Part shown: piece by piece, positions 6,393-37,078 of the stretch
Layout of the letters: every line of letters begins with the position of its first letter
Position numbering within the stretch: position 1 is the first letter of the stretch
NCBI GenBank assembly: GCA_027604505.1
Contig: JADIIX010000117.1
Span: 1-64,000 of the forward strand
Length of the DNA stretch: 64,000 nucleotides
Direction: 5' to 3'
Source: Gonapodya sp. JEL0774
Taxonomy: Eukaryota
Notes under the pieces: model-generated
Databases searched by the model: none
What the model was told of the DNA's origin: nothing
Seen by the model: the letters and a program-made list of their open reading frames with translations, nothing else
Translations under genes and position numbers: made by a program

Positions 6393-7732
6393 TCATGCAA
6401 GCTCGACGACAGTTGCCTCTGGGTAGCCGCAGCTCAAGAGCATCTCGCTCACGGTACTCTTGAACCTTTTGGTGCCACAAATGAAAATCCGAGTCCCTTC
6501 AATTTGGGCAGTTGCACTTTTGAGAGAACCGGCACTGAAACGCGGGGCAGACTGTGAGCTGGGGTTCAGATTCGACATTTGCCTTGATAGGGGACGTGTC
6601 GTTATCTGCTCGGGTGGTGGGGGCATAGCTGAGCACAGAATCTCTTCGTTGAGATGACCCCGAAGACCAGTCCACTTTGGCAAAGTTGGAGCGGTTGTCA
6701 CGAACAACGAAACGAGAAGTATGATGATTGAGCGCTGACCTCTGGAGATGGAGCGATTGCCAGCGTGGTAACTTTCAGAGCACCATTGAGCTCGTTCACT
6801 AAAGTATCAAGAAAGGTACGACCATAACTTGGTCAAAGTCGAGTGTCAGGGCTGCTGTTGTGTGCTTCACTCGATAAACTCACATCTCATAGTCAGATTC
6901 AACAACATCAAGCAAGCGTATTGTAAACAGAGGCGATCCAGGCTCTCCTGGCTTGAGAGTGGGCGATCTTAATCCGCAACGGGCGTACCTAATGTCTGAG
7001 GTGAGTGATCGCTGCAACAGCGACTCCAAATTCTCTCACCATTCAATGATATTGATAAAAGGAGCAAGTCCAGTCCCGTGACACACCAATCCGATCGAGG
7101 AGAAGCACTTGGATTCGTGTTTTGAATTCCGCATTCTGTCGATCGGGTCTTCGGAGCGCGTGCGTGAATATACTCAGTGTAGGTTTGCAGCATTTGAATC
7201 ACCCACGGGACGATGAGGTCAACTCACTGAGACAAGCATCCTTACGGTTTACCATTATCCGCACCTGATGTCCGATCTCCAGTGCTTGCAGTAGTTGAGA
7301 CATTTTCCCCTCGGGGTGAATTTTGATGAGAAAGTCTATTGAATTCTTGCATTCGATCGATATTGGAGTGTACGAACGCGTGGCCAGCTCGTTTGTTGTT
7401 GAGTTGACGATTTGAAGAGTACAATGTTCGCCGGGTCGGAAAATGACGGGGCTTTTCGGATGGTTCCCATTGGCGTCTCGTATTTCAAACGAAAAGAGCA
7501 GGACTTTCTTTCGTGCCTTTGGTTCGGACATGGATGTTTTCATTATCAGTTTGAAGTAATGAAAGACTCTGGAGCTGAGGATGGAATCCATGGCAAGTTG
7601 ACCTTCTTGAATAGTTGCTATACTCGATGGGCCTTCAACCTCCGGGCCCTTGGGCACCAACTCAAGGATGGTAGATTTCATTATTTGACCAGATGTGGGC
7701 GCTTGTGCAATTCTGGCTACTTTCATAGTTCG
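6393..7732 (-). CDS. cytochrome b5 reductase-like FAD- and NAD(P)-binding domains (module of fusion)
   Basis: RPGEH, TRSYTPIS, FLIKIHPEGKMSQLL; IGLVCHGTGLAPFINII; WTGLRGHLNEEIL; IFICG; stop at 6393-6395. Confidence 0.85.
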
Positions 7733-7796
7733 CTGGAGATGGAGAGCGAACTATTGTTAAATTGATCACGATGAAGGAACCGGGGAAATGCTCACC

Positions 7797-8170
7797 AGTT
7801 GCAAAAGCGCAACACGTGAGTGCTCGTGAGAGACCATTCTAGTTTTCCCTTTTGATACTTCCAGGGATAGAGCATCCACACCGGAAAAGTACCGTGAAAT
7901 ATCCTGTAGCATGGCAGAACCAATATGTGATGAAAGTCAAGGATCCGTTGTCCATCTCTCTACTCACCATCCCAACCACGTGCAGTATTGGCGCGGCTCC
8001 TCCCGGATGCGATCGACAGTAATCACTCAGATCGTACACAATACCATCCACGATAACGAGTTTAGCACCATTAATGGTGCGATCGTTAATTGTGATGCGA
8101 ATGGGGTAGGGTTGAATGGTGCTCCCAGTTGAAAGTGTGGACAGTCACTGTACATTCTTTCCAGGTGATG
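7797..8170 (-). CDS. cytochrome b5 heme-binding domain (module of fusion)
   Basis: ITWKE..LVIVDGIVYDLSDYCRSHPGG..VGMDISRYF...HSRVALLQL. Confidence 0.85.
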
Positions 8171-8269
8171 GCCATAAGTCCTGTGTTGGTGTCCTTGCCA
8201 GATTCCAATTCGTCACCAATTGCGTGGGATCCCGACCAATCTCGACCAGTTATCTTCTGAAAGATATTT

Positions 8270-8915
8270 TGCCATTCGTGGAAAGTGATGAGAACCAAAT
8301 TCCACGAAATCACCACCACAACAAAAGTGACTTGAAACACCATGAGGTTGGGATTCTCTCTCAAGAATATCGACATTCCGCTGAATAGTGAGAGCAAGCG
8401 CAATTAGCAGGCAACTCCCGGAGATTGTAGAGATAGCGTACAGAAACGCATTGACCATATAGTCGTCGTCATGAGATACCCCAAAACACGATGAAACGCT
8501 TGTGTCTGAATCAGACGATGCCGAATGAAATTGCCAGCTGCGCCCATTTTCGACAGATAAACTGATGCTGTTGGACATGAGAGAAATCCAAGCAACACCT
8601 GTGTGATCATCAACCCGAGTAATATCTTGCCAAGGATAACATGAGCACTGTTGCCACTCAGCGTCATTATAATGCTCAGCAATACATTCACAACTGTCTC
8701 TGTAACAAGAATGCTCCTTTTTGAACAAAAATTGAATGTGTTCGGAACAAGGGAAGAGTTTAGTGCGCCCGCACTCACATAATCTCTCGGTGCCACGCCA
8801 GATAGTTCGCGTAGCGACTCGAGTAATGAACAATTACAATGGCCATCGGAGCGACAATGGAAAAAGAGACGAAAAGCAGTATGCCATGGAATATTTTGCG
8901 AACATTTCTTTGCCG
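8270..8915 (-). CDS. cytochrome b561 transmembrane domain (module of fusion)
   Basis: Four heme His in hydrophobic helices: IFHGIL, AWHREIM, SAHVILG, AFHRVLG; then VNAFLGM and a final TM helix; 1-nt frameshift at ~8459. Confidence 0.8.
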
Positions 8916-8959
8916 TGCGGGATCTTGAGAGTTGTCGGATACTGGCGAACCACTCAACA

Positions 8960-9611
8960 GGTTGAGCGTCGTTGTTCCGACATTGTCTCCACTGATCAAA
9001 ACCGGAAAGATCAGTAAGATCACCCGGTCGTCGGGCTATGGGAAATTAATATCTCACTGGAAAGCGAACGTTTCCAAATTAGACCAGGAAAAATGTAACA
9101 ACAATGGACTTTCGAGCATTAATACGCGATCTTTGTTTGGTACCGCCTGTTGAGAGTTGCCTCGAGAAAGCAACTGCCTTGATGAAGCCAGGAAACTCTG
9201 GCGTAGCATCCTCAATGTCTGCGAGATTTTGAACGGCATCGAATTGCGGGAGTTGATATCCACTTGAATGCCTGAAAATTACCAAGAATGAATCGTATGC
9301 ACTTAGTACGCGATGAAACATCAATTGAGTCCTTCTTACAGATCCTGGACTGTGTTTGATGTCTTGATGTACGCGACAATATCCATATCTATCATGCTTT
9401 CACCAAATCCGATGGCAAACCATCCAGTGTATCGACATGCGACCTTGAAGTCAACGAATCCGTCGGATAACCGAATTTGCCAGCTGAGCTGCATCGATGT
9501 CCCCAGTGAGATGGTACTCCAGCTAGGTCCAAGTTCCACTGACACATCTGTTGCGCCATCGGACGGATCAGTGGAGACAGGTAGCGTGGTCAGATTGACC
9601 GACGAATACCC
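8960..9611 (-). CDS. DOMON heme-binding domain (module of fusion)
   Basis: LSWQI...GWFAIGFGESMIDMDIV (Met ligand) ...FSRQLSTG...LHFSWS...FAFHGDNVG (His ligand); 1-nt frameshift at ~9143. Confidence 0.8.
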
Positions 9612-9679
9612 TGAAATCATGTTTCAAGTATCATTAGCCGGCAAATGCGTCCGATGACAGACAAAGTGAGGTGACTCAC

Positions 9680-11172
9680 CGAGATCCATGAGCTTTTGCC
9701 AAGAACTGGCAAATTTCTCATAAACGATTGTGGAGTTTGCGGCATACCTTAATTGAAAAGGGAATCGCGCCATTGTTTCAACACCCCTTCTCTCTCATTC
9801 AATCACTACACTCACTGGAAAACGTAGTAGCGAAAAGTGTTGCTTTGCACGAGAGCGATATCTGATGGAAGCATCATAGTCTTTCCATCCCTGGAAAAAA
9901 ACTGTAAGTAACCGTTGGTGGCGGTGATATTCTTGAAAAACCTGGGCATGAAGAGGAATTGACACCAAGTGGCACTGAAAGAAAACATGAACCGCGGATT
10001 ACACCTTAAGTCAGTAAGGATTCCAAAATATGAATTCGAGAATCTAAGTGGGCGCCTTGTCCATGGTCCTACGTAACCGGAGCGATCGGCGTGAGGTTTG
10101 CACATTACAATAAGGAGTCCGCAGGAACAAGTGAACGCGACCCGCATGCATCACAAACCTCTACCCAAGCAATGTGCTCCAATTAGCGCAACGAGTTCTG
10201 CGTCGTTAAACCCCATGTTGGTCTGGAAAACGGAACGGAAATGGTCCTCGCCACCGGAAGGATCCGGGAGCCGGCTTGGTGTCACACCAGTACCAACAGC
10301 GAAATCAATGCGGCCGCAGCGAAAATTTACTTTGCAAGGCAAATTGCGGACAGAACAATGGTGTTGATCTGGTCACCTTGCAGGAAGTCTACAGGAGTTG
10401 ACACTCACGTAATGGACCACCGCTTGCGGTGATGGCAACAGAACCCGCAAAGGCCCAAATATCCGCGACTTGAGATGAGAGGATAAACAGGCGGAATTTA
10501 CACCCTGTATCGAATGAAGAACTAATGCGACGTCATACTTGCGACGTTCGGGTACCTAATCGAGATATCCGCGAGCATCCCGCGAGCAAGAGCAAGACCT
10601 GCGTTTTCAGCTGCAGGGCAAAACATTATCAAAACAAGCATCAAACTCGTTGTTGCAATGTGTCATGTGAGCACGTTTTCATGACTCACCCATGTCTGAC
10701 ATAGGCGAGAAACGCATAGTGGCGTGTATTCCACCTGTGTTGTCTGGTATATACACCATCAACAAACGTTAATGAAAGGTCAAGTGTGGCACAATACTTT
10801 GAGTGCGGACTTGCTTGTCATCAAAGAACGATGTCAGCGTGCACCCACTCAGCTTGGAATATGTTCCGGCGTCTTGAAACGCCAGTCGAACAAGGAGTGG
10901 CCCTATCCGACGGTCATAGTGAACGGTGTGGTTTCAGGCAATGAGAACAGAATCACTAAAGGTCATCTCTTCGCTCCAACATGACAATGAAACACACCAT
11001 GACCAGCTTGCACAAGGTTGTAAATGGTACTCCGAATGTCTAGCCACCCAGTGATCGTGGTTCCACAATATATTGAAGTATCGTTCTGAACTCCATTGGA
11101 GAAACCGAAGAGGATCGTTACAAAGTATGCAATCAGAATCAGAGTGTTTCGAAGAGAGCGTGTCATTTTCAT
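9680..11172 (-). CDS. N-terminal module of fusion: signal peptide/anchor + ascorbate/cytochrome c peroxidase-like (class I) domain
   Basis: MKMTRSLRNTLILIAYFVTILFGFSNG; GPLLVRLAFQDAGTYSK; ENAGL; IADIWAFAG; GRIDF..RLPDP; ELVALIGAHCLGR (proximal His); HADRSGYVGPWT; MMLPSDIAL; KLMDLG. Confidence 0.85.
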
Positions 11173-11595: not shown

Positions 11596-12996
11596 TCACT
11601 TGCCATATCTTTGCTCACTCCCCGCGAACTTTTCCATCACCTCCCCAACAGCCCTCGCCGAGACACCCTCCAGAGTCACCGTGGTAGACCACATCCATGC
11701 AATACGTTTACGTGGTGTAGACATTGCCGCCTGTGGTGGTGACGCGACAAAGCGTACTATCCGAGAGGCAATCTCCGAGGATAAGGGTATCGAGTACAAT
11801 TGTGTTGTCCGGAGAAGGTGAGGAGGGAAGCCGTCTAGGATGACCGCAGACGAGGGAAGAGACGTAGGTGGGCGAAGCAGGTCTATAACTGGATTCAACA
11901 GAGGGTGTTTTGTGGTTTGTGCGCTACGGTACGGATTGCTGGTGACAGTAACATCAGCCGTGTGAGAAGGAAAGACAAGGACAACGCAAGGATCGGGAAT
12001 CGAGCGAGAGTTGAAATAACGGGCGAGAAGCTCGGGAGTGAAGAGGGCCGGCGGCCGTGCTGACGTTGCAGTATCTCTCCTTTCCGACACTGCTGGGGTC
12101 TTTGCCGGCTCCTTGTCCCGCACGGTTGTCACAATTGGCGACACACGTATTTCTGCCACTGTCCGGGCAATGAACGGCTTCGAGTCTGTCTCGTAACTCA
12201 TGAGATGGACGCGAAGAACTTTGGGATGGTGAGAAAGGCCCGGCCGTCTCGATGTGCCTGCTGTTGCCACTGTCAATCCCCCGAGTCCTACAAACAGCTC
12301 AATCCATGTGTAGCCGAGAGAATCGGTAAACAAGGATTCGTTTTCCGAGATGACGTCGTACATTCGCAGCACAAGGGTCTCCAGAATGGATCCGTGCCAA
12401 ACGTTATCGCGAACGTATATGGAGAGATCGGTAGACCGGCACTCTAGCGCACAGCGTAAGAGCAGTGTGAACGAATCGGCGAGGGTGGAGTTGGTGCCGT
12501 CTTGTGGGCGAAGAACTGCAGAAAAGTGGCGGGGGTACTTGATCAGTCCTCGAGGTAGTGATACCAGCTGCTCCCCATCATCGTCTTTATCCTTGTGACC
12601 CCGCTCTGGCACTGCGAGACTCCAGCTGATGGCCCTATACACGACGGATGCGCACCAGCGGGCGCAGACCCACACCCCAAAGAGCCAGTGGAACGCGAGT
12701 AGCATTATGACCAAAAGCGGCTGCAGGATCGGCGCTGAGAGGAGTGCATCGAATTTGTACTTCGTGGTGAGAGTAGCGTGGGTTCGAGATGAGGGATTGG
12801 ATGGCGGTTTCGCGGGGCGCGCGGGGAAGGACGAGGAGGGAGGCGACTTGTGTTTCCGTTCATCATCGAGCGGGGCGAGGCGGCGCCGCGGGATTCGTGC
12901 TATTGGAGTCAAATCCTCTAGTTTAAATGGTGCCGTGTTCTTGCTGCTCGATTGCCAGAGATCCAACTCCGATGCACCCCGTGTTCGAAAGAGCAT
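11596..12996 (-). CDS. NUS1: cis-prenyltransferase subunit Nus1 / Nogo-B receptor homolog
   Basis: Intronless ORF with N-terminal TM, KYPRHFSAVL, LSIY, IPDPCVVLVF, LDGFPPHLLRTTQL and the C-terminal EQRYGK (RxG) motif. First ATG at 12996. Confidence 0.8.
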   Translation of the reverse strand: MLFRTRGASELDLWQSSSKNTAPFKLEDLTPIARIPRRRLAPLDDERKHKSPPSSSFPARPAKPPSNPSSRTHATLTTKYKFDALLSAPILQPLLVIMLLAFHWLFGVWVCARWCASVVYRAISWSLAVPERGHKDKDDDGEQLVSLPRGLIKYPRHFSAVLRPQDGTNSTLADSFTLLLRCALECRSTDLSIYVRDNVWHGSILETLVLRMYDVISENESLFTDSLGYTWIELFVGLGGLTVATAGTSRRPGLSHHPKVLRVHLMSYETDSKPFIARTVAEIRVSPIVTTVRDKEPAKTPAVSERRDTATSARPPALFTPELLARYFNSRSIPDPCVVLVFPSHTADVTVTSNPYRSAQTTKHPLLNPVIDLLRPPTSLPSSAVILDGFPPHLLRTTQLYSIPLSSEIASRIVRFVASPPQAAMSTPRKRIAWMWSTTVTLEGVSARAVGEVMEKFAGSEQRYGK

Positions 12997-13764
12997 TGCC
13001 AGCGCTGTCGGCTGGCTTCTCAGTTCTGGAAGCCAGCTTCCTATTCTAAACTCCAAATTTGAAGTTTTCGGTCAGAAGAGCTGGCTGCTCTCTCTCAATT
13101 CCGAAAATACCGCGGTGTTATTGCGTTGCTGTCGAATCCCTCGAAACCCCCTCACATAAGCCGGGGCACCAATGGATCACAGATAATATCCCAATTTTCA
13201 CGGGAATACATTTATATTACGTCAGGAGTGGCGACTTGACAAATAATCGACGATTGCTGATAAGGAGCCCTTACAGTTAAAAGTGACTCGATCTCCCAAA
13301 GGCTCCAGTGGGACGGCGAGGAAAGTAGAAAACAGGCAGAAACTAGCTTGTGAATATTTACATAATAACTCTGCCCACTGTCGGCATGTAATTAAGCATT
13401 AAGCTCGCACCAGTTTGGGTTGTGACTAATCTCACGTTTCATCCCAATATGGCGAAGACTGTGTCCCCAAATATATTTGTTTTTTGAGGGGTATGCCTCC
13501 GGTTGCCAGCCAGAAAACCCCCCCTCAGAATCCAGAACGCCTTGTTGGTGACACCGTGGCAATCGCAAAGAGAGCCAGGAGGATCTCAAACGTGGGTTTC
13601 ACATTGCCTACTTCCACGGACGGGGGGGGATAATAAAGCTGCATAAAGTCAGTTCCAGACCAACAGCGAGCAACCACCCCCAAACAACACTTTTCGCTCA
13701 TTCCATTGCTACCCCAGCCAGGAACGCTTACAATTCATCTTGCAGTCTCCGCATCGTATCCGTA

Positions 13765-14192
13765 ATGTCTCCCAACAGTGGAGTTGTGGGTTCCGACTCC
13801 CGCCACCAGACAAGACGAGTGGAGGCTCTCACGCCACGCTCCGCAGTCGAATCTCTTGCATCGGATGTGAGGCTTGCGTATGCAATTTTCTCCGTCTCTA
13901 AGCCAACTCTTTGCGCGTTTGTCACACCGCAGATCAAAAGGATCATCGATGAGTCCCCTGCTTCCGAAAGGCAGAAGGCGGATTGGCATTGCGAAGTGAA
14001 GGCGATTGAGGAGAGCATAAACAAAGCGACGGATGAGGAAGCAGGACAGCTCAAAACTTACATCACCCTCGCTGGAATCACAGGATCAGGTTCGCCTTTA
14101 CGGTCTCACCTACAAAGTGCCGTTATCTCATCTTTCTGTGTAGGAAAATCGACGTTAATCAATGTTCTTCTCGGAGCTGATATCGTTCCAAC
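13765..14192 (+). pseudogene. truncated dynamin-like (Dynamin_N type) P-loop GTPase fragment
   Basis: ITLAGITGSG |GT-AG intron| KSTLINVLLGADIVPT; no further GTPase exons are visible before it meets the SEL1 array on the opposite strand. Confidence 0.55.
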
Positions 14193-14269
14193 AGTGAGAA
14201 CGGTCGTAACGGGGTATTCCGGCTGCTCGTCCTCACCTCCTTTTTTTTGTTTTTTTCTTGCGGATCCTG

Positions 14270-16900
14270 TCAGAATGACGCAAAATCGTTGGTGTAGCAG
14301 ACACCGAGGTGGAACTGCGCCTCTTTCATTCCCTCGTCGGCGGCCTTCCTGTACCACGCGGCCGCCTCTCGCAGGTCCTTCTCCACGCCTTGCCTGTAGA
14401 GGTAGTAGTTACCGAGGCCGTACTGCGCAGTTGCGTCTACCCGGTCCGCGGCCTTCCTGTACCACGTCACCGCCTCAACCTGGTCTTTCTCCACGCCCCG
14501 CCCGTTGTAGTAGCAGTTACCGAGATTGAACTGCGCGCTGGCGTAGCCCTGGTCCGCGGCCTTCCTGTACCACTTCACCACCTCAACCTGGTCTTTCTCC
14601 ACGCCCTGCCCGTTCGCGTAGCACCAATCGAGGCTGGCCTGCGCACCCGCGTTGCCCTGGTCCGCGGCCTTCCCGTACCACGCGACTGCCGTTCTCTCGT
14701 CCTTCTCCACGCCCTGCCCGTTGAGGAAGCAGAAACCGAGACCGTACTGCGCATGCGCAGAGCCCTGGTCCGCGGCCTTCCTGTACCACGCAACTGCCGT
14801 CTCTCGTCCTTCTCCACGCCCTGCCCGTTCGCGTAGTAGACACCAAGGTTGTACTGCGCGTTGGCATAGCCCTGGTCCGCGGCCTTCCTGTACCACGCGA
14901 CTGCTGTCCTCTCGTCTTTCTCCACGCCCCGCCCGTTCTCGTAGCAGACACCGAGGTTGTACTGCGCGTTGGCATAGCCCTGGTCCGCGGCCTTCCTGTA
15001 CCACGCGACCGCCGTTCTCTCGTCCTTCTCCACGCCTAACCCCCTCTTGTAGCAGAAACCGAGGTTGTACTGCGCCATCGCAAAGTCCTGGTCCGCGGCC
15101 CTCCTGTACCACTTCACCGCCTCAACCTCGTCCTTCTCCACGCCTTGTCCAAAATAGTAGGAGTCCCCCACTTCGTGATGTGCGGCAGCGACCCCCTCTT
15201 CGCCTGCACCAAGACACCACTGAAATGCAGCTTCAAGATCCTTATCCAGTACTCCAAGTCCATTCTCGCAGAAGAAATGGAGCTGATTTTGAGCTTCCGC
15301 ATGGCCGAATTCAGCTGCTTGCAGGTACACCTGCGATGCCTTCTCGAGATCCTGCACGTAACCGTCACCACCATGGTGGACAGATCTGGCTATCGAGAAC
15401 AATGCGGCTGAGTCTTCCATCAGATTTTCTGGAATTTCCACCTCGGGGTGGTGGTCGGATTCTCGTTCAGGACTGCATTTGAGGAATGGAGGTGAGACGA
15501 TGTGGTATCTAACAGCGTACTCCAACTTACGTGATCTGCAGAAGAGTGGCTGTGATCGATGTGAAAGGTGGGCGATTAGCCGGGATCGCGTCCCAGCACT
15601 TCCTCATCAGTTGTTCGAGGTCCCGTGCCATATCGGCGTCGGGCGGCAGTTCGGGGCGGCGATGTGGATGATTGCACACTGATCCAAGAATGGCATAGAA
15701 TTGCATTTTTTGAGTTCACCAAACGGCTCCTTCTTTGTCCAGAGCTGTGTCCCATCCATCAATAGTTAACGGCATGGGCAGGTCGCAAAGTACATAAGCA
15801 CTTCACTCACCGCATATATGACCATGGCAAACGCATAAATATCGTCTGCTTTTTCAGTACCTTCACACTGTAATCGTTCAAGGGACATGTATCTGACGGA
15901 GCCAATCCTGTCGCCCGTTGTCTCATTCGAGGATGCCAGGACTTTTGAAGACCCAAAATCTGTTTTAATGCCGCGCTTCCGTTTGTTCACCAGCACATTG
16001 TCCGGCTTCAAATCTGCGTGAACTATTTCGTGGTCGTGGAGGTAGGTCATCCCTAGCGAAATATCAAGAAGCTGTGAGAAACCTCTATGAAGAAACGAGA
16101 TAATCAAGCACATAAAACAACACTACGAACTCACAAGGTACAGCACTTCACGGCGGCGTTGTGATTCATCTGACCAAACTCTGGTCAGATAGTCTTTCAA
16201 ACTCCCGTACTCAAGAATTGGAGAGACCAATGCAAACATGGATCCTCACTTTACGATACCGTACAAGGGTAGTATATGTGGAGAGGTCATGTTGTACCAC
16301 AACATTGCCTCATGCTCGAAAGACTGCAAGAAAAGTTTGACCATAGACCTCAAGACACATGTCACCTTTCATACTTTTTCGTCTCACCCATTCCGAAAAC
16401 GTATCATCTTTACAGCAACGTCGATGGACCCCAGCCATCTCCCGCGAAATACAGGCCGTATCCTCCACCCCCAAGCCGGTCATGGGATATTTGGAGGTCG
16501 GATTCCTTCATATTCCAGACTTCGGGAATCTTGGCAAGCTCCGTCCTCATCGATGATGGTACTCTCATTGTCATGGAAGGGGGTGTAGCAGGGACGTTGT
16601 TCATACGAGGAACCGCGGCTGTGTACCAGTCGTCGGGGACAGCCGCGGGGCCGCCTTCCCGGGCAGGAGCAGCGCCATCAGACACGCTTGCGTCAACGAT
16701 AAGTGGGAGGACTGCAGTGTGCCAGGTCTCGGGAGGCGGCACGCGTGTTGTCCTTCCTCCACGCGCCAGGAAAGGCCGCTGTTAGCTCAGGGATGTCATC
16801 AGACGATGGATCGTTCACATCGGGGGCGATTTTCTCGTGAGCCAAGTCGGCGACTTGAAAAAGTCTGCGAGAGCGAGCATCGGTCCGCTGTTCGGTGTTG
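14270..16900 (-). pseudogene. protein kinase (TKL-like) + SEL1-repeat gene, copy 2, inactivated
   Basis: GGGGYG [frameshift ~16454] VFRGRWLG..VAVK; in-frame TGA 16246-16248 (GIVK*GSMF); HADLKPDN, DFG, YMSLE; frameshift in A-run ~15710; 1-nt deletion in a SEL1 unit ~14800; array truncated at the 3' end. 5' end approximate. Confidence 0.85.
14300..15140 (-). repeat. ~8 near-identical 108-bp SEL1-coding tandem repeats
   Basis: CCTGGTCCGCGGCCTTCCTGTACCAC recurs at 108-bp spacing (e.g. 14871, 14979). Confidence 0.9.
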
Positions 16901-17210
16901 AGGGAACTACTCCCAGATGTTGGGATGAAGACAACAATTCTACGGTCATTCGTCTGGAGCAGTTTCCAGCCACTGTACAATAATAATACCACGAATTAAT
17001 TCGATAATATTACTTTGGCATTCAATCGTGCCACTGCCTACTGAGACTCCCATGAGTCCGCCAATGTGTACAACTCGATCGCCTTTGGACAGGTCCATGT
17101 CCCACCCAGGCCAAGCTCGTGCGTCCGGCCCAGTACTGCCTGCCCGACTTGGTCTTCAATCTCCTCCGCAGAATGCCTGTAGAGTTACGCCACCTTCACC
17201 AAATGACACT

Positions 17211-20200
17211 CTAGGATGGGCAGGTCGACGGGATCCGGTCGACTATCAGACCTCGCCGTTGCAATGCATGAAATGCAAAGTCGTGGCCCTGACCCGCGGC
17301 CTTCCTGTACCACCCAACCGCCGTTCTCTCGTCTTTTTCCACGCCGTTCCCATTCTCGTAGCAGACACCGAGGTTGTACTGCGCGCTGGCATAGCCCTGG
17401 TCCGCGGCCTTCCTGTACCACGCGACTGCCGTTCGCTCGTCTTTCTCCACGCCCCGCCCGTTGGCGTAGCAGACGCCGAGGTTCGTCTGCGCATTGGCAT
17501 AGCCCTGGTCCGCGGCCTTCCTGTACCACGCGACCGCCTCTCCCAGGTCCTTCTCCACGCCTTGCCCGTTCTCGTAGCAGTATCCGAGGCCGTACTGCGC
17601 ACCTGCGTCCCCCTGGTCCGCTGCCTTCCTATACCACTTCAATGCCTCTTCCTCGTCCTTCTTCACTCCGTCCCCGTAAAAGAGCAAACTACCCAAAGAA
17701 AACTGCCCTTTGGAGTTGCCCTGCTTCGCGGCTTTGCTAAGCCACCTTACTGCATCCTGATGGTTCTTTTTCACGCCATCTCCGCTTATGTACCTCAATC
17801 CAAGACAGAGTTGTCCTTCAGCGTTACCCTTCTCCGCAGCCCTGCGGTACCAGTACACCGCTTGTTCGTCATCTTTTTGGACACCCTGTCCGTTGGCGTA
17901 GCACTGACCAAGATTGAGTTGGGCCTCAACGTTTCTTTGTTCCGCGGCCTTCCTAAACCACTTTATCGCTTCTTCCTCGTCCTTCCTCACTCCCTCTCCT
18001 TTGTAGTAGCTCAACCCGAGCCGGAACTGTCCTTCGGCATTGCTATTCTCGGCTGCTCTCTTATACCAGTTCACCGCTTCTACTTTGTCTTCCTCCACGC
18101 CCTGTCCATTCATGTAGCAGCCTCCAAGAAATACCTGACCAGACGTGTCATCCTGTACGGCGGCCTTCCTATACCAGGTCACCGCTTCTAGTTCGTCCTT
18201 CTCCACGCCATGCCCGTTAGCGTAGCATCCTCCGAGCGCTACCTGGGCCGGCGCCTTGCCCTGTTCCGCGGCTTGTCGGTAGCAATTCACTGCTTGGGCC
18301 TCATCTTTCTCTACACCCTCCCCGTTCATGTAGCAACGACCGAGCTTGTACAGTCCACTTGCATCGCCCTGCTCCGCAGCTCTGCGGTAAAGAGCTGCTG
18401 CTTTTTGCTTGCTTTGCCCCCAAGTCATGTCTCCAAGGCGGACATCCTCGGACGGAGTAAAGACCATTGCTTCAGGTGACTGAACCTGATACTGTCTGGG
18501 ATCGATAACTATCCATTCTCCCATGTCTGGATCTGAATCGAATTGAGCCCCTAGGTGCTTCCAAGCATCTTGAGCAGGCTTGTAGTTGTAACGTGCCGCA
18601 TAGTGGTAGTGCCAGGCTGCCGTTATCTTCAAATTATCAGCGTTATCCTCATCATCCTCGTCATACTCGTCATCTTCTCCATCTTCGTCATCCTCGTCAT
18701 CCGCGTCAGTCTCGCCATCTTCTCCATCTTCGTCATCCTCGTCATCCGCGTCAGTCTCGCCATCTTCTCCATCTTCGTCATCCTCGTCATCCGCGTCACT
18801 CTTGGCATCCTCGCCTTCCTTGTCTCTCTTGCCATCGACGTCACTCTTGTCATATTCATCATCCACGTCTTCGCATTTCTGGAGTTCACTTAATCCCTCA
18901 TAGTAACACCCCATTATAAAGTTTGCTTCTGGGATATCTCCTACAGCCGCCTCCCTGAAATGTACCAAGGCTTCGCTAAACTGCCCTTTGATATCTCTCA
19001 GATAGAGTCCGAGCTCGTAATGAGCCCGGGCCTGTCCTTTCTCGGCAGCTTTGGTCATCCAATCCTCGGCAGCTGGGTTACTCTGCGGCAGTCCTTCCCA
19101 CCCATGCAAGTAACACATCCCAACCTTGAGCTGCATGTCAGCATCAATACCGGCCTCTAACAGTCTGTTGGACCACTCGCTGACTTTGGCCTGATCTCTC
19201 AGAATAGAATTTGTCCCGTGCTCAAAGATCTGGATTAGGTTCAGCATCGCTTGGGGGTATCCTTGATTAGCTGCTTTCTCGAATAACACTTCGGCTGTGT
19301 ATTCATCCCTTGTGAGTCCTGCAATGCCGTTCAAGTAACATACAGCGAGACTGTTTTGCGCGACACCGTCTCCCTGTTCTGCAGCAGCGGAGAGAAGTTT
19401 CACCACTTCTTCACTGCCATCCATCGATTTGTCACGCATCAAAAAAACGCCAAGCTTTGCCTTTGCGCATATGACACCTTGGTCGGCTGCCTTACGGAAC
19501 CACCGAGCTGCCAGCTTCGCGTCTTGTGCTACACCTCGACCTTCCTCATAACATATCGCTATCATTGCTTGTGCGTCAGAGTGCCCTTGTTCTGCCGCCT
19601 TACGTAACCAACAACATGCCTCCACTGGGTCTGCTTTCACACCATAGCCATTCTGATAGCACACTCCCAGTCTGAATTTTGCTGCAGCATGCCTTTCGAT
19701 TGCAGCCTTCATGTACCATTCCACTGCCATGGAATAATCTTGGGCAACACCTTTGCCCTGCTCAAAACTGACACCTAGACTGTATTGCGAATCGACGTGC
19801 CCTTGTTCAGAAGCCTTGAGGAACAACTGAAACGACTTAAGATACCACTTGGCAGGCTCTGCAGAGTCACTGTTCCAATAGTGCTGCGCCAAGTCATACT
19901 GCGCTTCAGGAATACCACCTTTGACTGCCATGCGATATCCCATATTCTTTACGGGTCTCCCGCTATAGCGTGGATCTGATTCCCATAAATGGCCCAACTC
20001 ATAATACGCCCGAGCATACCCACAATCCGCTGCCCGCTTCCACCACCACTCTGCCAGGGCGGAATCCTGTGGAAGTCCCATCCAGCCACGCTTGTAGCAA
20101 GTCCCGACACTGAACATCTGCTGGCTGTCTTGGGAGTCCTGTGCCCGTTTGCGCCATCCTTCAGCCACATCAACATCTTTGGCAACAGTCCCGATGCCTA

Positions 20201-23053
20201 TCTCGAAGATTCGTGAAAGGTTCAACTGCGCTACTAGGCATCCCTGTTCAGCAGCTTTCACAAAGTAATCAGTTGCCAATTTTACGTCTGTGGAACGACA
20301 ATTTCCATCCAAGTAGCAGACTCCTAGACCACACAATGCTGTGATGTTGCCTTCTTTTGCTGATTCTCGGAAGAGCTCAAACGGATCAAACGATTCATCT
20401 TCCTCCTGATCCCCACCAACACCATGGATTAGAAGCACACCGAGATTTGCACAAGCGTCAATATATCCTTTTATTGCGAGCTTGTGGAACTCCAAGATTA
20501 ACTCAGTGTACTCCTTTTCAAGGCCATAGTTTTCAGCATGGAAACTGAAAAAGTTGAACCACCCTTTCTGCTGATTGTCTTCTCGTATCGATATGGCTTC
20601 GCGATATAACCGAGCAGCAGCTGAATAGTCCTGAGGAACTCCTTCACCTGTGAAATAGCAGTGTCCGAGCAAGTACTTCGCGAGCAGGAAGTCCCGGGCA
20701 GCAGCCTCGCGATACAAACTTGCTGCATTAGCCTTAGCAATGTCCTTAGGTAACCCAGGCCTATTTTTGATGAGAAACCCGAGCTTGTAGTATGATATGG
20801 CCACTATTCCGTTGTGACTACCTTTTTCGACAGAGTTTCGGAACCACCTGGCAGCCTTTGCGGTGTCTTCCTTGAATCCAGCCCAACCGTATTCGTAGCA
20901 GAGTGCCAAAATAAACTGTGCCTCCTCGTTGCCTTGAAGAGCCTCCATTCGCCACCACTCAGTACGATTACTCTCAGGGTGACCCAACCATATCAATTTG
21001 TGCCTTGATTTGGAATGCCCACTTTCAGCGGCTTTGCGCAACCAGTATTCAGCATCCTCTGAACGGCCGTAGTCCATGTAACTGAGTGCAAGTTCATACT
21101 GGGCATCGCGGTGCCCTTTCTTTGCAGCCAATTCCAAAAACCGTATAGACTCCTCTGGGTCTTTTGCGACGCCACCATTACCCCATTTGAGATAGATGAT
21201 TGCATAATCGTACTGGGCCGCTGAATCCCCTTGTTTGGCGGCAAGATGTAACCATTTTCCACTTTTGACAAGGTTTCTGGAAACACCAAAACCATCCCAG
21301 TAACAATGTCCAACACGTAATTGCGCCCTTGTAACTCCATGCTTGGCTGCCTTAAGGTAGCATGAAAATGCCTTTGTATAATCCTGGTCAATGCCCTCAC
21401 CCCGAAAATAGCAATTTCCAAGGTGGAATTGGGCTTCTGGGACTGGGTCCTGCCGATTTGCAGCCTTGGAGTACCACAAGACAGATTTCTTGTAGCTCTG
21501 CTCGACACCAAGGCCCCAGTAGTAGAGCAAACCGAGGTCGTATTGAGCCAGTGCAACACCTTGTTTGGCAGCCTTAAGGTACCACTTTGCTGCCTGTTCA
21601 TAGTCTCTGCCAAAAAGTCCCAGTCCAGTGCGATAGAGTAAACCCATCTTGTACATGGCATCAAAATCGCCATCCATGGCTGCACGCTCATACAAGTATG
21701 ATGCCCTGTCAATATCACCAAATTTGCGACATTGTTCAGCCTCTGCATACAAAGCCTCCCGGTCAATCGAGAGGTCTTTAGCTATGGGTGACAGGCCAAT
21801 TGGACCTATCCCTTGAGGTCTAGCAAAAGAAGAGTTAAATAGTGGCACCGTTTTCGGAGGATCAAACACATTGCCTCACACAATATGCTCTAACCTTTCC
21901 ACAATGTCCTTGAATGTGGGCCGGCAATGGGAGACATGCGTCCAGCACTGCTCCATGAGTTCTTGGAGGGCGGGAGGCATTTCAGTATCTGACGGGAGAA
22001 CAGGCCGACGAGAGTTGTAGCATATCTCCTCGAGATCAAACGCTGAAGGGGATGTATATGCGCCTCTACGTGTCCAGAGCTGGCAAGTGACGACAGCTTC
22101 GAGCCACTTCACGTTTCCAGTTGGGATATCTTACACACCTCAAACAGTGTCACTCCAAAAGCATAAACATCATCCTGTTTGGTGGTCCCCTTTTTCAGGA
22201 GGCGCTCTGGGGACATGTACTGACGTGTCCCCATTCTGTACCCTGTCTTGTACTTGTACGCTCCTGCTTCCACCTCATCAGCTTCTTCATCAATGGTAAG
22301 CACCTTGAGCTTGTTATCGACATTGTCAACGTCAAGCTCCCTCAGCTTGTTATCAGTTTCGTCGATGTCAAGGTCAAGAAGGAAACGGAGCCTTCCTAAT
22401 TCCTTTGCTGATCCAAAATCACTGACAAGAGCCTGTCCGGAGCTGCTTATCAAAACATTTGTTGGCTTGAGATCTGCGTGGATAATGCCGCGTTTATGGA
22501 GGTACTCCATGCCACGGGCGATGCCCAAAATCTGGATAAACAATCCAGCTGAAGCTCGCAAGTCCATATCATCAGCAAAAAGACACATACGATAAAATAT
22601 GCTCTCTCTTGGAATGTGTCATGTGGAAGTTTCTCGAGGTATTTTGCAGCATTTTCGTTTTTCATGAAGGGGGTGATGAACTCCAGACTGTCGCCTTCGT
22701 CGTGTATACCGCACAGAGGAGCCACATTTGGTGATTCTAAGCTGTACCAGATCCTAGCTTCCTTCTTGAGCTCCTGCATGGGATATTTTGGCATCACATA
22801 GTGGTAGCAAAAGGAAATGCAAGTAACACACTTCACGATTATCATAGCTTTTATCATGGGGGGTTTTGATGGCAACTGGAAAGCCGCGCCATGTACCTTT
22901 AGTCACGGTGCCGAACCCTCCGTCAGCGATACCACGTTCTGATTTGTGAAGGTCTGCCGAGGAAATGTTCCAAACGGAAGGAGGTTCCGGAATGCCGATG
23001 GGCTTGACGGACAACAGGTCATCATTCAATGGATCAATGACACGTTGCTCCAT
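17211..23053 (-). CDS. protein kinase (TKL-like, non-RD) fused to a long SEL1-repeat array, copy 1
   Basis: IADGGFGTV, VAIK, HADLKPTN, DFG, YMSPE, DVYAFG, CW..RPTF across four exons, spliced in frame (HIV|PQG) to a ~1530-aa exon with >25 SEL1 repeats. Extra 5' exons possible. Confidence 0.88.
18671..18798. repeat. 45-bp coding tandem repeat x2.8 (DADDEDDEDGEDGET)
   Basis: catcttctccatcttcgtcatcctcgtcatccgcgtcagtctcgc starts at 18671, 18716 and 18761. Confidence 0.9.
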
Positions 23054-23662
23054 TGATGTGTAGGTGAAAGGTTGAAGGCTGGTGTCGAAAGGCGCCTTTG
23101 CTGCGCAGAAGATGTGCCGCAATACCAGGGAGTTCGACGGTGATGTTGGAGGGTGGGTACGAAGGATGGCTAGAGTGTTTAAGGCACCACAAGGCGGCAG
23201 ATGCCGATCGGATTGAGAGGGGAGTTGAGGGATGGGGTCGGATAAGGATCGCAGGGGGCCCTATCGAAAGAGTAAGAGACGGCAGAGGTGGGCTGGTGGG
23301 GAGTGCGGGAGACAATGTGAGCAAAACTTGGTTCCTGAACGCTCTCTAGATCCCTCTTGATCATCTGACTTGTATCTGGATCACACGTTCGAAAACCTGT
23401 TGATCCTATCTTGCCGATTTCTCGTAACTCTGCGCTCTACAACTGTTCCATCGCAGACGACCCTAGCGTCTTCCAAGTCGTTTTCCTCATCCACCACGGG
23501 AATCACTGCGCGCGACGGTTCCACGAGCCAAGCACCTACAATCCCGATCTACGAGCCGTATGTACGGCCTCTCTTTACCAGTGGGTTGGGATGCTGTTAT
23601 TTATCTTATTGGGGACTTGGGGTCATGTCTTCGGGCAAACACTGGCTGGCAAAGATCAATCA

Positions 23663-32456: not shown

Positions 32457-33171
32457 GATAAGATAACGGGAAGGGCAAAGGGGCATCTGCAACAAATCAC
32501 CATCGAATGCGGGAGCTCTTATTTGATGGAATTCGAATCGCTGTACTCATCGCTTTCACAGGAGGCTGGAACAAATATAACCGGGAATGCGCATGATGCA
32601 GAATAAAGCGGGCCGTATTTATCATGAAGAGTCCCCCATTCACAACCCTTTCCGAGAATAAATGTAACGATTTCGACGAGGGGACCAGATAAGATGGGAA
32701 GAATAAGCTTACTCATTATTTAGTAACTCAATGACGCGAGAGGGGCAGATTGTTCAGGCGCTGCCTCTTGGTCATATACGGGTTTGTTGTTGCTATGGGA
32801 GATTGAGACTCGAAATTATCGTACAACCACTGGGGAGCTCAAGAAGAGATTCCATCAAAAATATTCACGCAATGCGCTTTATCTTTGACCACAGTTTGGG
32901 CAGTGAATATGTCTATCGGGCAGGAACAACATTTTGATAAGTTGCTTCCGATCAGGAATTTGACCTCGGGATGGGAAGAGCCGCAAACCTTTGGAACCCG
33001 AGACCTCCAGGACGGCGTTTATAAACCAAGACGATTTCCTGCTGTTTTCGCAATCTCCAAAGTTGCAAAGTTGGAAACTCGGCAACTTTGAAAGCATCGT
33101 GGAATCGCAATCATTTACCTTCAGGTGAGGACAAAGTCGCTGCCTGGTTCTACAGCACCCTGATCGTTATC
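32457..33171. promoter_or_regulatory. cluster of GATA-factor (GATAA/TTATC) sites upstream of the NCS1 permease
   Basis: Eight sites in ~715 bp (32457, 32462, 32619, 32688, 32816, 32879, 32936, 33167), three of them GATAAG. Confidence 0.55.
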
Positions 33172-33252
33172 TCTCCGCTCCTTTTTAAAACAAAAAAGAG
33201 CCATCGCTTTTTCGCACTGTTTTCCGTACTCTTGGCGATTCGATTCCCTGCG

Positions 33253-35610
33253 ATGAAGTTCAGTCTGCGTGTCCAAGGGTCGTCAAACTGGCTCACCAAC
33301 TACGAGCTCTTGCCTCTGGCTCCGGAGCGTCGAACGTGGGGATGGACCTCCTACGTGTCCTTCTGGATCTCCGATGCCGTGAACCTTTCTTCTGCCGTCA
33401 TTGTTGCCAGTGCGGTATGTTGCTGTTTTTACATTGGTTTCCTTGTGGTCGAGATGACCGCGCGTGTTGTTTGGGAAGAGAACAAATCACGAACCCACCT
33501 GATCGTCATTACTCTGCTTGTCGATCTCCATTCAAAACAGGTTGTTTCCGGCCTGAACTGGTGGCAAGCGTGGATTTCCACTCTTCTCGCTTACACCATC
33601 GCCTCGTGGGGTATCGTTTTGATGAGTAAGGCCGGTGCGACATATCACGTCGGATTTCCTCCAATTGCAAGAGTTGCTTTCGGAGTTTTCGGTGGTATGT
33701 GGCCCGTCTTCAACCGTGTAGTAACTTCAACTCTCTGGGTGTGTGTTTGAGTCCTCCTTTGCCCGCATTTCGACGCGTTTGAAACCTCTTCATGCGCTAA
33801 CTCTCCTCATTCTCTCGCATCTTTCGCTCTGCTCCCTCTCATTTGCTCTCTCTAGTTCGCTTTCCAAAGTGCTCTCGGTGGTGGATGCGCAACCCTCGTC
33901 CTTCGCGCTCTCATCCCCCAGTACAATGATATCCCCAACACCCTCTCGGAATCCGCTGGAATCACTTCCAGGGATCTCCTTTCCTTGATTATTTTCTGGC
34001 TCACTTGGTATGTGTTGCAGAAAACTCCCTGAATTTCGACTTTTGCATTACACACGTAAAAGTCCGACTGGATTCTCACACCATTCACACCACATTCCAC
34101 AGCATCCCCGGCGTCCTCACCCGCCCCGAAAAACTCAAGTACCTTTTCATGGCCAAATCGATCCTCACTCCGATCGGCTTTTTCGCCCTGCTCGGCTGGT
34201 CCGTCAGCCAAGCCGGTGGCCTGGGCCCCATCGTCTCTGTCCCGGCTAAACTCGAAGGCTCCGCTCTCGGATGGGCATTTGTGGCCGCGATTACGAGTCA
34301 GCTGAGTAACATGGTGGTGAGTGGTAATTTTTATCTCTCGAATCGATATCCGGTTTCAAAGTGCGTGGTTGGGATCTCACTGTGTACTCAAACGTCTCCA
34401 ATTGTTTGTACCTCGTTCTCACAGACGCTTCTGGTAAACTGTGCAGACTTTGCCCGTCTCGCAAAGAAGCAATCCGATGTCGTCGCTCCTCAACTTATTG
34501 CCATGCCTGGTTCGTTCGCACTCACCTCCCTCATCGTGAGTTCTCATCAAGAGCTGTGTACCTTCACCTTCATCTCGCTCACCAACTCCGCTGCTTTCAG
34601 GGTTTGTGGATCGCCTCCTCGTCCCAAGTTATCTTCAACACCGAAGTTTTCAACCCGCTCGACATCCTGGTCCTCCGCTTAAACCAGGACCCGTTCAACG
34701 CCACCACCCGTGTGGGATGTTTCTTTATCGGAGCATGCTTTTGGGTACGTATTTGGAAGAAACATCGTCACGTTGCCCCAAATGATTATCAGTGCAGTCG
34801 TGCAGACTTTCTGATGTGCTCTCTCCATCCACGACACCACAGATCGGGCAAATCGGTACAAACATCGCCGCAAACTCCCTCTCCGCCGGTAGCGATGGCG
34901 CAGCCCTCCTTCCCCGCTACATTGACATTCGTCGTGGCGGGTTTATCTGTGCCTGCTTGGCCCTCATTGTCCAACCGTGGAGGCTCGTGCAGTCCGACAG
35001 CTTCGCTACGTACTTGGGATCCTACTCGGTCCTGCTGTCGCCCTTCTTGGGTATCATGTTGTCCGACTATTACGTCATTCGAAGGGGATTGCTGAACGTT
35101 CCCCACATGTACACAACTGAGCGCGGTAGGTTGATTGATAAACGCACATTTAGTCTCCTTGTAATGTTCCTTACTCTTTATCGCCGCCGCGTTACAGGTA
35201 CTGATTATATGTACGGCAGTTACGGCGTCAACTGGCGCTCTGTCGTGGCATACATTTGCGGTCTCGCAATCAATATGCCAGGTGAGAAAAACAACTCCCT
35301 GGACAGGACACTACTTGAAATCTCGCTGAATATCTGTTTTCGCCCCTGTATAGGCTTCATTGGTGCCGGTACCGGCTCGTTTGCTAATGAAGGTGTCCAG
35401 CACATCTTCCAGCTAGCCTTCTTCGTCGGTCTCGGTGTCTCATCCTTCGTCTACCTCCTTTGCTGCTGGGTTTCGCTCCCTCAGGGCGGAGTGCCCTTTG
35501 GAGAGAAGGGGTGGTACGAACCCAAGGGTGGATTCGAGGATCCCAAGTGGCTCGCGTCCATTCCCATCGACACCAAGGAGGAGTCCGAGGCTGTGGGTGA
35601 GAAGATCTGA
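33253..35610 (+). CDS. NCS1 nucleobase:cation symporter (Fur4/Dal4 uracil/allantoin permease family)
   Basis: RRTW..YVSFWISD, GLNWWQAW, YHVGFP..ARVAFGVFG.WPVFNR, LLVNCADFAR, IGTNIAANSLSAGSD..LLPRYIDIRRG, QPW, DYYVIRRG, GVNWR. Confidence 0.93.
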
Positions 35611-35936
35611 TCGCGTTTATGGTCCAGCCCGTCAGGGGATGTAGTCTTGATTCATGGAAGCGTAATTCTTGTTGAAATGTGGTAATACCACGTTTTGTAG
35701 TAATGTCTATACGACTGTGAATAATACGTTGAGAGTTTGAAGAAAATGGAGTGGCATCGCCATATCTATTTTAAGATTCCAAGAGTGCTCATCGGAGTAG
35801 TGAAACTAATTCGAACTCAAGTAGACTAATCCACTCCACAGCACTGTCTCCACATAGCAACAATATTCTTGCTGATACTAGGAAACAACAAGAGAATTGG
35901 AGATCTGTTTAAACTGATAAGCGAAGTGTCATTGTT

Positions 35937-37078
35937 TTACCTTGTGCATCGCTTTTCCGTCACATGAATCCACTTGCCCTCCACCCAGTACAGTGTTGCA
36001 GATCCATCCGACTTCACAATTTTCGCACATGGGCTGCCGAAACTCCCCGCAACGTTCCAAGAGTCTGATACGGAAGACACACGTTGCGTTGCATTTCGCT
36101 CGTTGTTCAGAGCCGGGTAGCGGAACCAGTGTGCGTCACACCATGGTCGAACACCGCATTCATAGCAGAAACGGCTCTCTTGGCAGGGCACGCAGTAAAC
36201 CTGATCACAACTTGGCATACTGCAATTCGTCCAGCTTGAAACACAGTCTTTGCACAATTTGAAAGCTTTCAGGCATGCTTTGTACTTCATCTCGGAAAGT
36301 GAGCCACTGTTCTCCGGCAGGGAAGTGCTCGAGACATGACCACACATTTTGCACGTTGCCGTGGCGAGGCAGGGTCTGCAAAGAGATTGGGCGGCGGGCC
36401 AGCGTGCAATGTCCCTTCCCAGCTTTCTGGTAGTGTCCACTCTGTCGGCCAAAACAACGTTCCGCTTGCATGCGACGCAGAGTGAAGGACGAAAACGAGC
36501 TTTTTTTGAAAGTACCGTGGCCATGGCGTCCTTCAGTACCTGGAAATCCACTCGCTCAGCCCCGGGGTCCTTCGTCCAACTGCCATCTCGAACATCCACA
36601 ATCTGGATCTGAGGTGCGGAAGCAGCTGAGGAGGCCGAGCGCATTGATTGCAAATTATCTGTGATAAGTGGGATCAGAGATTTTAAGTGGAGATCGGGCT
36701 AATCGCGCAGCGAGAGGAGGATGAGCGAAGGCAGTTGGAGAGTCCTTGCGACCGTCCAAATGGTGATGGCAGTCCTGTCAAGAATAACTTTTTGGATTTT
36801 ATCCGTAAAAGGTACTCGTGCTCGCGTTTCGGTTACTCCAGGTGTTTCTAGCGCTATCCAGCTTGCGATTTGCTGGATGACCTTCTTGTACTCATCGTCA
36901 CACATCTTTGGCCCCACATAGGAAATGTCCAACGTGTGCCAAGCCAAAGGTTCGGCGAAAATTCGACCGGACGCGGTGCAGGAAGCTGTCACCCGAGGCG
37001 AACGGAGACCGGGAGAGGGTCGAAGATTGATATGAGTACTTCCACGGGAAAATTCACGAGGTGTTCGTGGATCAGCAT
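35937..37078 (-). pseudogene. F-box protein with Cys-rich C-terminus, inactivated
   Basis: F-box LVNFPVEVLISIFDPLPVSVRL [frameshift ~36993] VTASC..AWHTLDIS; in-frame TAG 36699-36701 (SLRD*PDL); many CxxC pairs downstream. 3' end approximate. Confidence 0.7.

What the first reader, a model, noticed from the sequence alone, without database searches (positions are those of the whole stretch)
6393..11172. Single-gene trans-membrane electron wire: peroxidase-DOMON-cyt b561-cyt b5-NAD(P)H reductase fusion
Seen: ORF fragments that look unrelated in the ORF track splice into one polypeptide. Order is signal peptide, class I (APX/CcP-like) heme peroxidase, Met/His DOMON, four-His cytochrome b561, cytochrome b5 (HPGG), FAD-binding (RSYTP) and NAD-binding (GTGLAPF) domains, with no intergenic space. 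Established: DOMON+b561 (CYBDOM) proteins move electrons across membranes, and b5+b5-reductase modules draw electrons from NAD(P)H. Inference: this is a self-contained path NAD(P)H -> FAD -> b5 -> two b561 hemes -> DOMON heme -> extracellular peroxidase-fold heme (1 FAD + 5 hemes). It could allow surface peroxide reduction or redox chemistry without a diffusible donor. I know of no described protein with a peroxidase at the end of such a chain.
Basis: partly seen in the sequence, partly recalled or inferred. Interest (0 to 1): 0.95.

Follow-up and report, generated by a model that had tools for sequence, protein, structure and literature searches.

The report
Peroxidase-capped membrane electron wire, broken copy
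A gene of an aquatic fungus joins a peroxidase-type haem domain, a chain of membrane cytochromes and an NAD(P)H reductase in one protein that likely pipes electrons out of the cell to destroy peroxide at its surface; this copy has four frame or splice breaks, but whole copies are annotated in the same and a related fungus, and other chytrid fungi carry the same chain under a completely unrelated peroxidase.

Summary
Real, with a correction. The minus strand (6393-11172) holds a 21-exon Gonapodya gene: signal peptide, class I (APX/CcP-like) peroxidase, Met/His DOMON, four-His cytochrome b561, cytochrome b5, b5-reductase. All haem ligands are present. As assembled it cannot make the protein: two frameshifts (~9141, ~8454), two non-AG acceptors (10096, 8090), and the catalytic distal His reads Gln. 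The architecture is annotated whole in two paralogues and in G. prolifera KXS20078, which keeps all catalytic residues. The same five-module chain occurs in ten chytrid genera capped by an unrelated animal-type haem peroxidase, so two peroxidase superfamilies were placed on one chain. Distal His is lost in 8 of 12 DOMON/b561-linked class I domains but kept in nearly all stand-alone ones. Best reading (inferred): cytosolic NAD(P)H drives surface H2O2 reduction, the DOMON haem acting as a tethered cytochrome c; His-less caps may do other chemistry. It is DUOX-like in design but not a DUOX. I found no paper on it. The scan noted the chain three times before on other DNA, once with a peroxidase cap.

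The parts
6393..11172 (-). 21-exon fusion gene, 1124 residues when read through with X at two frameshifts; likely decaying copy
11092..11172 (-). predicted signal peptide (hydrophobic stretch, residues about 6-27; no dedicated predictor available)
9680..11055 (-). class I haem peroxidase domain (exons 1-9): distal Arg64, Gln68 in place of distal His, proximal His191-Trp207-Asp253
10874..10876 (-). codon at the distal-His position, reads Gln (motif RLAFQD)
10096..10158 (-). intron 6, acceptor reads AC instead of AG (break 1); nearest AG would delete 9 residues of the proximal loop
9611..9679 (-). canonical in-frame intron joining peroxidase to DOMON (GTGAGT, GCTAAT, TTTCAG); also used by the NCBI model
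8954..9509 (-). DOMON domain, haem ligands Met363 and His453 (His codon split by intron 9057-8992)
9139..9143 (-). frameshift inside DOMON (break 2), no canonical splice path round it
8278..8903 (-). cytochrome b561 core plus fifth helix; His488, His520, His549, His599
8452..8456 (-). frameshift in the fourth b561 helix (break 3)
8090..8153 (-). intron 14, acceptor reads AA instead of AG (break 4), no canonical path to the b5 haem ligand
7712..8172 (-). cytochrome b5 domain, His719 (HPGG) and His760
7146..7579 (-). FAD-binding domain of b5-reductase type (RSYTP)
6393..7110 (-). NAD(P)H-binding domain (HGTGLAPF, terminal ICG)

Best explanation
This is a single fusion gene with four frame or splice breaks, likely a decaying copy of a family whose whole members are predicted to carry electrons from cytosolic NAD(P)H through FAD, cytochrome b5, two b561 haems and a DOMON haem to an outward-facing peroxidase haem that would reduce H2O2 to water. 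Shown: domain order, ligands, breaks, whole annotated homologues, two unrelated peroxidase caps on the same chain. Predicted: five membrane helices, cap outside and reductase inside. Inferred: the DOMON haem replaces cytochrome c of cytochrome c peroxidase and re-reduces compound I/II through the conserved proximal Trp; members that lost the distal His (this copy included) would be slow peroxidases and may use the terminal haem otherwise.
For: Whole annotated class I-capped members P0005, P0023 (same strain label) and P0142 (G. prolifera KXS20078) align to the model over more than 1000 residues at 28-30% identity. P0142 keeps distal Arg/His and proximal His-Trp-Asp. Ligand columns are conserved across the chassis alignment of 17 rows. 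Model of P0005: five long membrane helices; reductase matches cytochrome b5 reductase, Z 27.2, rmsd 2.2, 243 aligned; a family DOMON-b561 piece matches Dcytb and plant b561, Z 14.2, rmsd 3.5-3.6, 162-164 aligned, and DOMON haem domains. N-glycosylation sequons: 90 in 7724 N-side residues against 42 in 6843 C-side residues over 13 proteins. 12 of the 17 stored proteins with all five chain modules carry an animal-type peroxidase cap, 3 a class I cap, 2 no cap: independent recruitment of two peroxidase folds points to peroxide chemistry at the end of the chain. CYBDOM transfer across three haems is measured in HYP1 (PMC10784544, passages); CcP takes electrons from cytochrome c via Trp191 (PMC8317151, passages). 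Thermodynamics (recalled): DOMON/b561 haems can reduce compound I/II but hardly the ferric class I haem.
Against: No activity, expression or haem-distance data. The fold model has pTM 0.38, so the docking of peroxidase on DOMON is unresolved. Distal His is missing in 8 of 12 fused class I domains and the distal motif in 6 of 10 animal-type caps where it can be read, which fits poorly with peroxide reduction as the one family function. Cap-less versions exist (P0114, P0149; an Atlas cluster rich in ciliates, score 0.83, a lead only), so the chain works without a cap. Evidence for decay beyond the four breaks is weak: 15 of 65 conserved columns deviate against 0-5 of about 60 in 10 homologues, but two deep-branching homologues deviate at 11 and 14 of 65.
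Confidence: 0.5

Rival explanations
1. DUOX-like oxidase/peroxidase: the chain reduces O2 at or near the outer haems to superoxide/H2O2 (or forms a ferrous-oxy terminal haem), and the cap uses or channels it for wall cross-linking or oxidation of outside substrates; His-less caps are O2-binding or scaffold haem domains.
For: Same layout as DUOX (extracellular peroxidase-like domain on an NAD(P)H-fed transmembrane haem chain; PMC3591440, passages). Repeated loss of distal catalytic residues with the proximal His kept in both cap types. A CcP H52Q mutant is reported to oxidise rather than reduce H2O2 (title only, seen in the reference list of PMC9125774).
Against: The membrane core is b561-like, not NOX-like; b561/CYBDOM proteins are described as reductases of Fe(III)/Cu(II), and 'superoxide' does not occur in the HYP1 paper. 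Reducing a ferric class I haem from a DOMON haem is uphill (recalled potentials).
Confidence: 0.22
2. Self-powered surface reductase (Fe(III), Cu(II), quinones) of CYBDOM type; the cap is an accessory domain that removes Fenton peroxide or acts on diffusible donors and is not wired to the chain.
For: Measured function of CYBDOM proteins; cap-less chains exist; the linker of about 30 residues before DOMON is modelled as disordered; the window's domain keeps the APX-type Arg at proximal His+9 (role recalled).
Against: Does not explain why 15 of 17 complete chains found carry a peroxidase from either of two superfamilies (the query contained peroxidase sequence, so the sample is biased towards caps).
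Confidence: 0.2
3. The copy in the window is functional: the four breaks are assembly errors, one allele of a diploid, or are repaired by unusual splicing.
For: No in-frame stop in 1102 full codons, and all 9 haem-ligand positions kept.
Against: Four independent breaks in 4.8 kb, while the same window holds unbroken ORFs of 1554, 843 and 788 codons; no canonical splice path across two breaks. Two splice-site hits with no nonsense hit are compatible with recent decay (chance 0.16 from target sizes).
Confidence: 0.2

Closest known systems
CYBDOM proteins (Arabidopsis HYP1, CRR)
   Same: Met/His DOMON in front of a four-His b561 core; three-haem path out of the cell (PMC10784544, passages).
   Different: CYBDOMs take electrons from ascorbate; this family has its own b5 and b5-reductase inside and a peroxidase domain outside.
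Dual oxidase (DUOX)
   Same: Signal peptide, extracellular peroxidase-like domain, transmembrane haem chain, cytosolic FAD/NAD(P)H domains in one chain (PMC3591440, passages); caps often lose catalytic residues.
   Different: No part is of the same family here: class I (PF00141) not PF03098 cap, b561 not ferric-reductase core, b5 plus FAD_binding_6, an extra DOMON haem, no EF-hand hit. The chytrid relatives do share the PF03098 cap.
Cytochrome c peroxidase / ascorbate peroxidase (class I)
   Same: Distal Arg, proximal His-Trp-Asp; closest solved sequences are ascorbate peroxidases and CcP.
   Different: Secreted side, tethered to a putative donor haem; distal His is Gln in this copy.
Cytochrome b5 / b5-reductase module (nitrate reductase, NCB5OR, Cbr1)
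   Same: Fold match Z 27.2 to yeast Cbr1; HPGG, RxY(T/S)P, G-loop and terminal CG motifs.
   Different: Feeds a membrane b561 rather than a molybdenum domain or a desaturase; NADH versus NADPH unresolved.
Fungal hybrid B peroxidases fused to WSC domains
   Same: Secreted PF00141 domain in a fusion protein, chytrid members known (PMC4232752, PMC5571214, passages).
   Different: Partner is a carbohydrate-binding domain, not a redox chain; DOMON and cytochrome b do not occur in the main text searched.
Bacterial quinol-fed periplasmic peroxidase (E. coli YhjA; recalled, no call)
   Same: Membrane electrons used to reduce H2O2 outside the cytoplasm.
   Different: Di-haem c fold, quinol donor, not one chain from NAD(P)H.

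Membership tests
Class I haem peroxidase (PF00141) | Profile match above the gathering score | tested here: met
   Exon 6, 36.8 bits against 27
Class I haem peroxidase (PF00141) | Distal Arg and proximal His-Trp-Asp | tested here: met
   Arg64, His191, Trp207, Asp253
Class I haem peroxidase (PF00141) | Catalytic distal His (PMC4232752) | tested here: not met
   Gln68 in this copy; present in P0142 and P0005
Class I haem peroxidase (PF00141) | Compound I formation with H2O2 | not testable with these tools
   needs protein
CYBDOM | DOMON with Met/His haem pair | tested here: met
   Met363, His453, conserved columns; family fold matches DOMON haem domains
CYBDOM | Four-His cytochrome b561 core | tested here: met
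   His488/520/549/599; family model matches Dcytb and plant b561 at Z 14.2; Pfam passes for P0129 (26.2 bits) but not for window exons
CYBDOM | Only DOMON plus b561, ascorbate as donor | tested here: not met
   extra peroxidase, b5 and reductase domains; ascorbate site not examined
Cytochrome b5 plus b5-reductase module | Bis-His b5, FAD- and NAD(P)H-binding domains | tested here: met
Cytochrome b5 plus b5-reductase module | NADH-selecting acidic residue or NADPH-selecting Ser/Arg (recalled) | tested here: inconclusive
   the segment is not conserved across 14 rows with sequence
DUOX | Animal-type peroxidase domain (PF03098) | tested here: not met
   window and Gonapodya homologues match PF00141; met in the chytrid relatives
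DUOX | Ferric-reductase (NOX) transmembrane domain | tested here: inconclusive
   no Ferric_reduct hit in chain members; fold ranks b561 Z 14.2 above NOX5 Z 12.0, both helical bundles
DUOX | EF-hands; no b5 or DOMON | tested here: not met
   no EF-hand hit; b5 and DOMON present in P0005, P0023, P0142
Functional protein-coding gene (this copy) | Open frame by canonical splicing | tested here: not met
   no path across 2 of 14 anchor intervals

The most novel reading that the evidence does not exclude
Zoosporic fungi own an undescribed class of NAD(P)H-powered surface haem enzymes: one six-cofactor wire onto which peroxidase folds of two unrelated superfamilies were grafted, and whose terminal haem has repeatedly been rebuilt (distal His to Gln, Ala, Lys, Arg, Leu, Thr) from a wire-fed peroxide reductase into a different catalyst, such as an O2-activating or radical-generating centre. 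It would be a second, independent invention of the DUOX design.
Probability: 0.3. Interest if true: 0.85.

Novelty: new variant of a known kind. Interest (0 to 1): 0.66.

Why it matters
If the wiring holds, a eukaryote can spend cytosolic NAD(P)H directly on a surface haem enzyme with one polypeptide, with no ascorbate, quinone or cytochrome c. Two unrelated peroxidase folds on the same chain give a natural experiment on what the chain is for, and an intact, catalytically complete member (G. prolifera KXS20078) makes it testable. The window's own copy matters less: it is probably dying.

Tried and rejected
No whole genome was held, so paralogues could not be searched as DNA. No sequencing run was listed for the region, which is no evidence either way. 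Word-based protein searches with single exons found only the locus's own model or nothing. The 80 metagenome loci held stand-alone peroxidases; none had a DOMON, b561, b5 or reductase hit in the DNA held. Atlas search of P0142 residues 40-680 without PF03098 clusters gave no usable hit. Complex prediction of peroxidase with DOMON-b561 was not available, so docking stays open. Trees could not order the cap swap: one clade of class I-capped Gonapodya chains is not rejected (AU p 0.39), nor one clade of fungal animal-type-capped chains (p 0.27). Rejected: two adjacent separate genes (no stop-start gap, canonical in-frame intron, whole homologues); membership in DUOX; reading Gln68 as certainly post-decay (Gln recurs in Prymnesium-type domains, a separate 100/100 clade). 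Iyer et al. 2007 on DOMON architectures and PMC3086972 were not held.
Full report
1. The gene. Three-frame reading of the minus strand gives a 21-exon model from ATG 11172 to TGA 6393-6395 with 20 introns of 51-105 nt. It uses 12 of the 14 GTRAG donor sites among 290 GT dinucleotides in the region. Of 19 exon pieces scanned, four hit Pfam peroxidase, DOMON, Cyt-b5 and FAD_binding_6 in the order claimed; the b561 and NAD pieces did not hit. One exon matches at 100% a protein that the source labels Gonapodya sp. JEL0774; that 221-residue model starts in the peroxidase tail and runs into DOMON over intron 9611-9679. Ligands in the read-through model: proximal His191, Trp207, Asp253; DOMON Met363/His453; b561 His488/520/549/599; b5 His719/760; RSYTP and HGTGLAPF.

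2. The copy is broken. Read-through needs two frameshifts (~9141 in DOMON, ~8454 in b561 helix 4) and two acceptors reading AC (10096) and AA (8090). Homologue spacing fixes the second frameshift: the NAFLG stretch sits exactly where relatives have NGFLG/NGYLG. Enumerating GT/GC-AG introns of 40-400 nt between 15 anchor codons found no open path over 2 of 14 intervals, and only deleting paths over the other two breaks (some expected distances there were off by 1-2 residues, which does not affect this). There is no in-frame stop in 1102 codons; two splice hits without a nonsense hit have a chance of 0.16, so recent decay fits. The model departs from 15 of 65 conserved columns against 0-5 of about 60 in ten homologues, but two deep homologues depart at 11 and 14 of 65, so this adds little. 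Assembly error or a second allele is not excluded; no reads could be examined.

3. The architecture is real elsewhere. A full HMMER search with P0001 returned 132 proteins; 71 of them and 5 others were scanned with Pfam, and all 152 stored proteins with profiles built from the chain alignment (circular for the seed rows). Seventeen hold all five chain modules (two with a truncated b561). Three carry a class I cap: P0005 and P0023 (same strain label) and P0142 (G. prolifera KXS20078, 1215 residues), 28-30% identical to the model over more than 1000 residues. Twelve carry an animal-type haem peroxidase (PF03098) instead, from ten named chytrid genera (Thoreauomyces, Phlyctochytrium, Cladochytrium, Polychytrium, Entophlyctis, Chytriomyces, Physocladia, Borealophlyctis, Lobulomyces, Clydaea) and one unnamed record. 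Two unnamed ones have a second DOMON and no cap. These are gene predictions, not shown transcripts. The Atlas gave, as leads under 0.9, a 54-member cap-less cluster rich in ciliates and a 179-member PF03098-capped cluster. The scan had noted the chain in two chytrid windows and a peroxidase-capped form in Basidiobolus (unchecked AI notes; I did not see those sequences).

4. Trees. In a 20-row chain tree the window's gene lies in a 95/94 clade with all named fungal members of both cap types, but not with the other three Gonapodya proteins (100/100). Neither one class I-capped clade (AU p 0.39) nor one fungal animal-type clade (p 0.27) is rejected on 14 rows (six rows left out), so the order of the swap is open. 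In a 31-row peroxidase tree the window's domain groups 100/99 with two partial G. prolifera peroxidases (63% and 54% identical; the second has the distal His, the first lacks that segment).

5. Distal pocket. The window has RLAFQD. Among class I domains linked to DOMON or b561, 8 of 12 lack the distal His (Gln, Ala, Lys, Arg) after merging near-copies; left out were two domains with no N-terminus and P0121, whose DOMON hit is weak and which has His (8 of 13 with it). Stand-alone domains keep it: 17 of 17 real motifs in stored proteins and, in 74 of 80 metagenome loci with the segment, all 46 distinct motifs read, plus one His and one aberrant Gln among two that the pattern missed. The rows are related, so the Fisher value is not a probability; the tree shows at least four separate fused lineages, two of them wholly His-less where readable. 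Animal-type caps behave alike: of 14 aligned, all keep the proximal His motif; of the 10 with the distal segment, 4 are intact and 6 have lost it (residue roles recalled from myeloperoxidase).

6. Structure and topology. An AlphaFold2 model of P0005 (26-row alignment, mean pLDDT 72, pTM 0.38) has five long membrane helices between DOMON and b5, an odd number that puts the ends on opposite sides; relative domain positions are not reliable. Its C-terminal part matches cytochrome b5 reductases (Z 27.2). A model of the family's DOMON-b561 piece P0024 matches Dcytb and plant b561 (Z 14.2, only modestly above generic helical bundles at 12.9) and DOMON haem domains. Sequons are about twice as dense before the membrane core as after it, partly from composition.

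7. Mechanism. Shown: parts, order, ligands. Established for the parts: CYBDOM three-haem transfer (PMC10784544, passages), CcP reduction by cytochrome c via Trp191 with His52 as proton donor (PMC8317151, passages), distal His as a general feature of studied PF00141 enzymes (PMC4232752, passages). Inferred: NAD(P)H to FAD to b5 to two b561 haems to DOMON haem to compound I/II of the cap, a surface NAD(P)H peroxidase (0.5). Recalled redox potentials favour reduction of compound I/II over reduction of the ferric haem. Rivals: DUOX-like oxidase chemistry (0.22), which better explains His-less caps, and a ferric reductase with an unwired cap (0.2).

8. Literature. Six full-text searches for the architecture listed no paper describing it; passages read in PMC4232752, PMC3591440, PMC6937255, bioRxiv 10.1101/851881, PMC6690862 and PMC5571214 mention Gonapodya peroxidases (8 CcP counted in G. 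prolifera), WSC fusions and DOMON-ferric reductases, not this fusion. The H52Q result is known to me only as a title. Subscription journals are largely missing and no supplements were opened; the 2007 DOMON architecture paper was not held and may list the cap-less chain.

9. Verdict. A genuine, apparently unstudied multi-haem fusion family; the window holds a probably decaying class I-capped copy. New here: the class I cap, the exchange of caps between two peroxidase superfamilies on one chain, and the repeated loss of the distal His. Novelty: new variant of known kinds (CYBDOM, DUOX-like design). Interest 0.66.

Noticed in passing
P0065 (Artemidia motanka, labelled as a Trinity transcript, 2198 aa): Four class I peroxidase domains (three readable distal motifs, all His), a DOMON-like stretch seen by eye, b561 and b5, then a C-terminal region that by eye resembles a nucleotide cyclase (no Pfam hit at 1e-3): possibly a peroxide-sensing version of the chain.
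   Followed up: partly
P0037 (Prymnesium parvum, 2731 aa) and P0039 cluster (JGI/IMG): Multicopper oxidase, b561, three class I domains (RLAFRD, RLAWQD, RLAWQD) and DOMON domains in one predicted chain; same His-to-Gln change as the window, in a separate clade.
   Followed up: partly
   Followed up: no
P0005, P0023: The public models look mis-spliced inside the peroxidase domain compared with P0142.
   Followed up: no
P0146: 2Fe-2S ferredoxin, nucleotide cyclase and class I peroxidase in one 539-residue protein.
   Followed up: no
window 13552-23260: Sel1-repeat ORFs (342 and 1554 codons, 22 repeats), a kinase ORF just upstream of the long one, and a weak dynamin-like P-loop hit.
   Followed up: no
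window 33025-38210: NCS1-type permease next to an Asp/Glu/hydantoin racemase, possibly an allantoin-use pair (role inferred).
   Followed up: no
window 11596-13071 (-): 491-codon ORF directly upstream of the fusion gene, no Pfam hit; by recall it resembles Nus1-type cis-prenyltransferase subunits.
   Followed up: no
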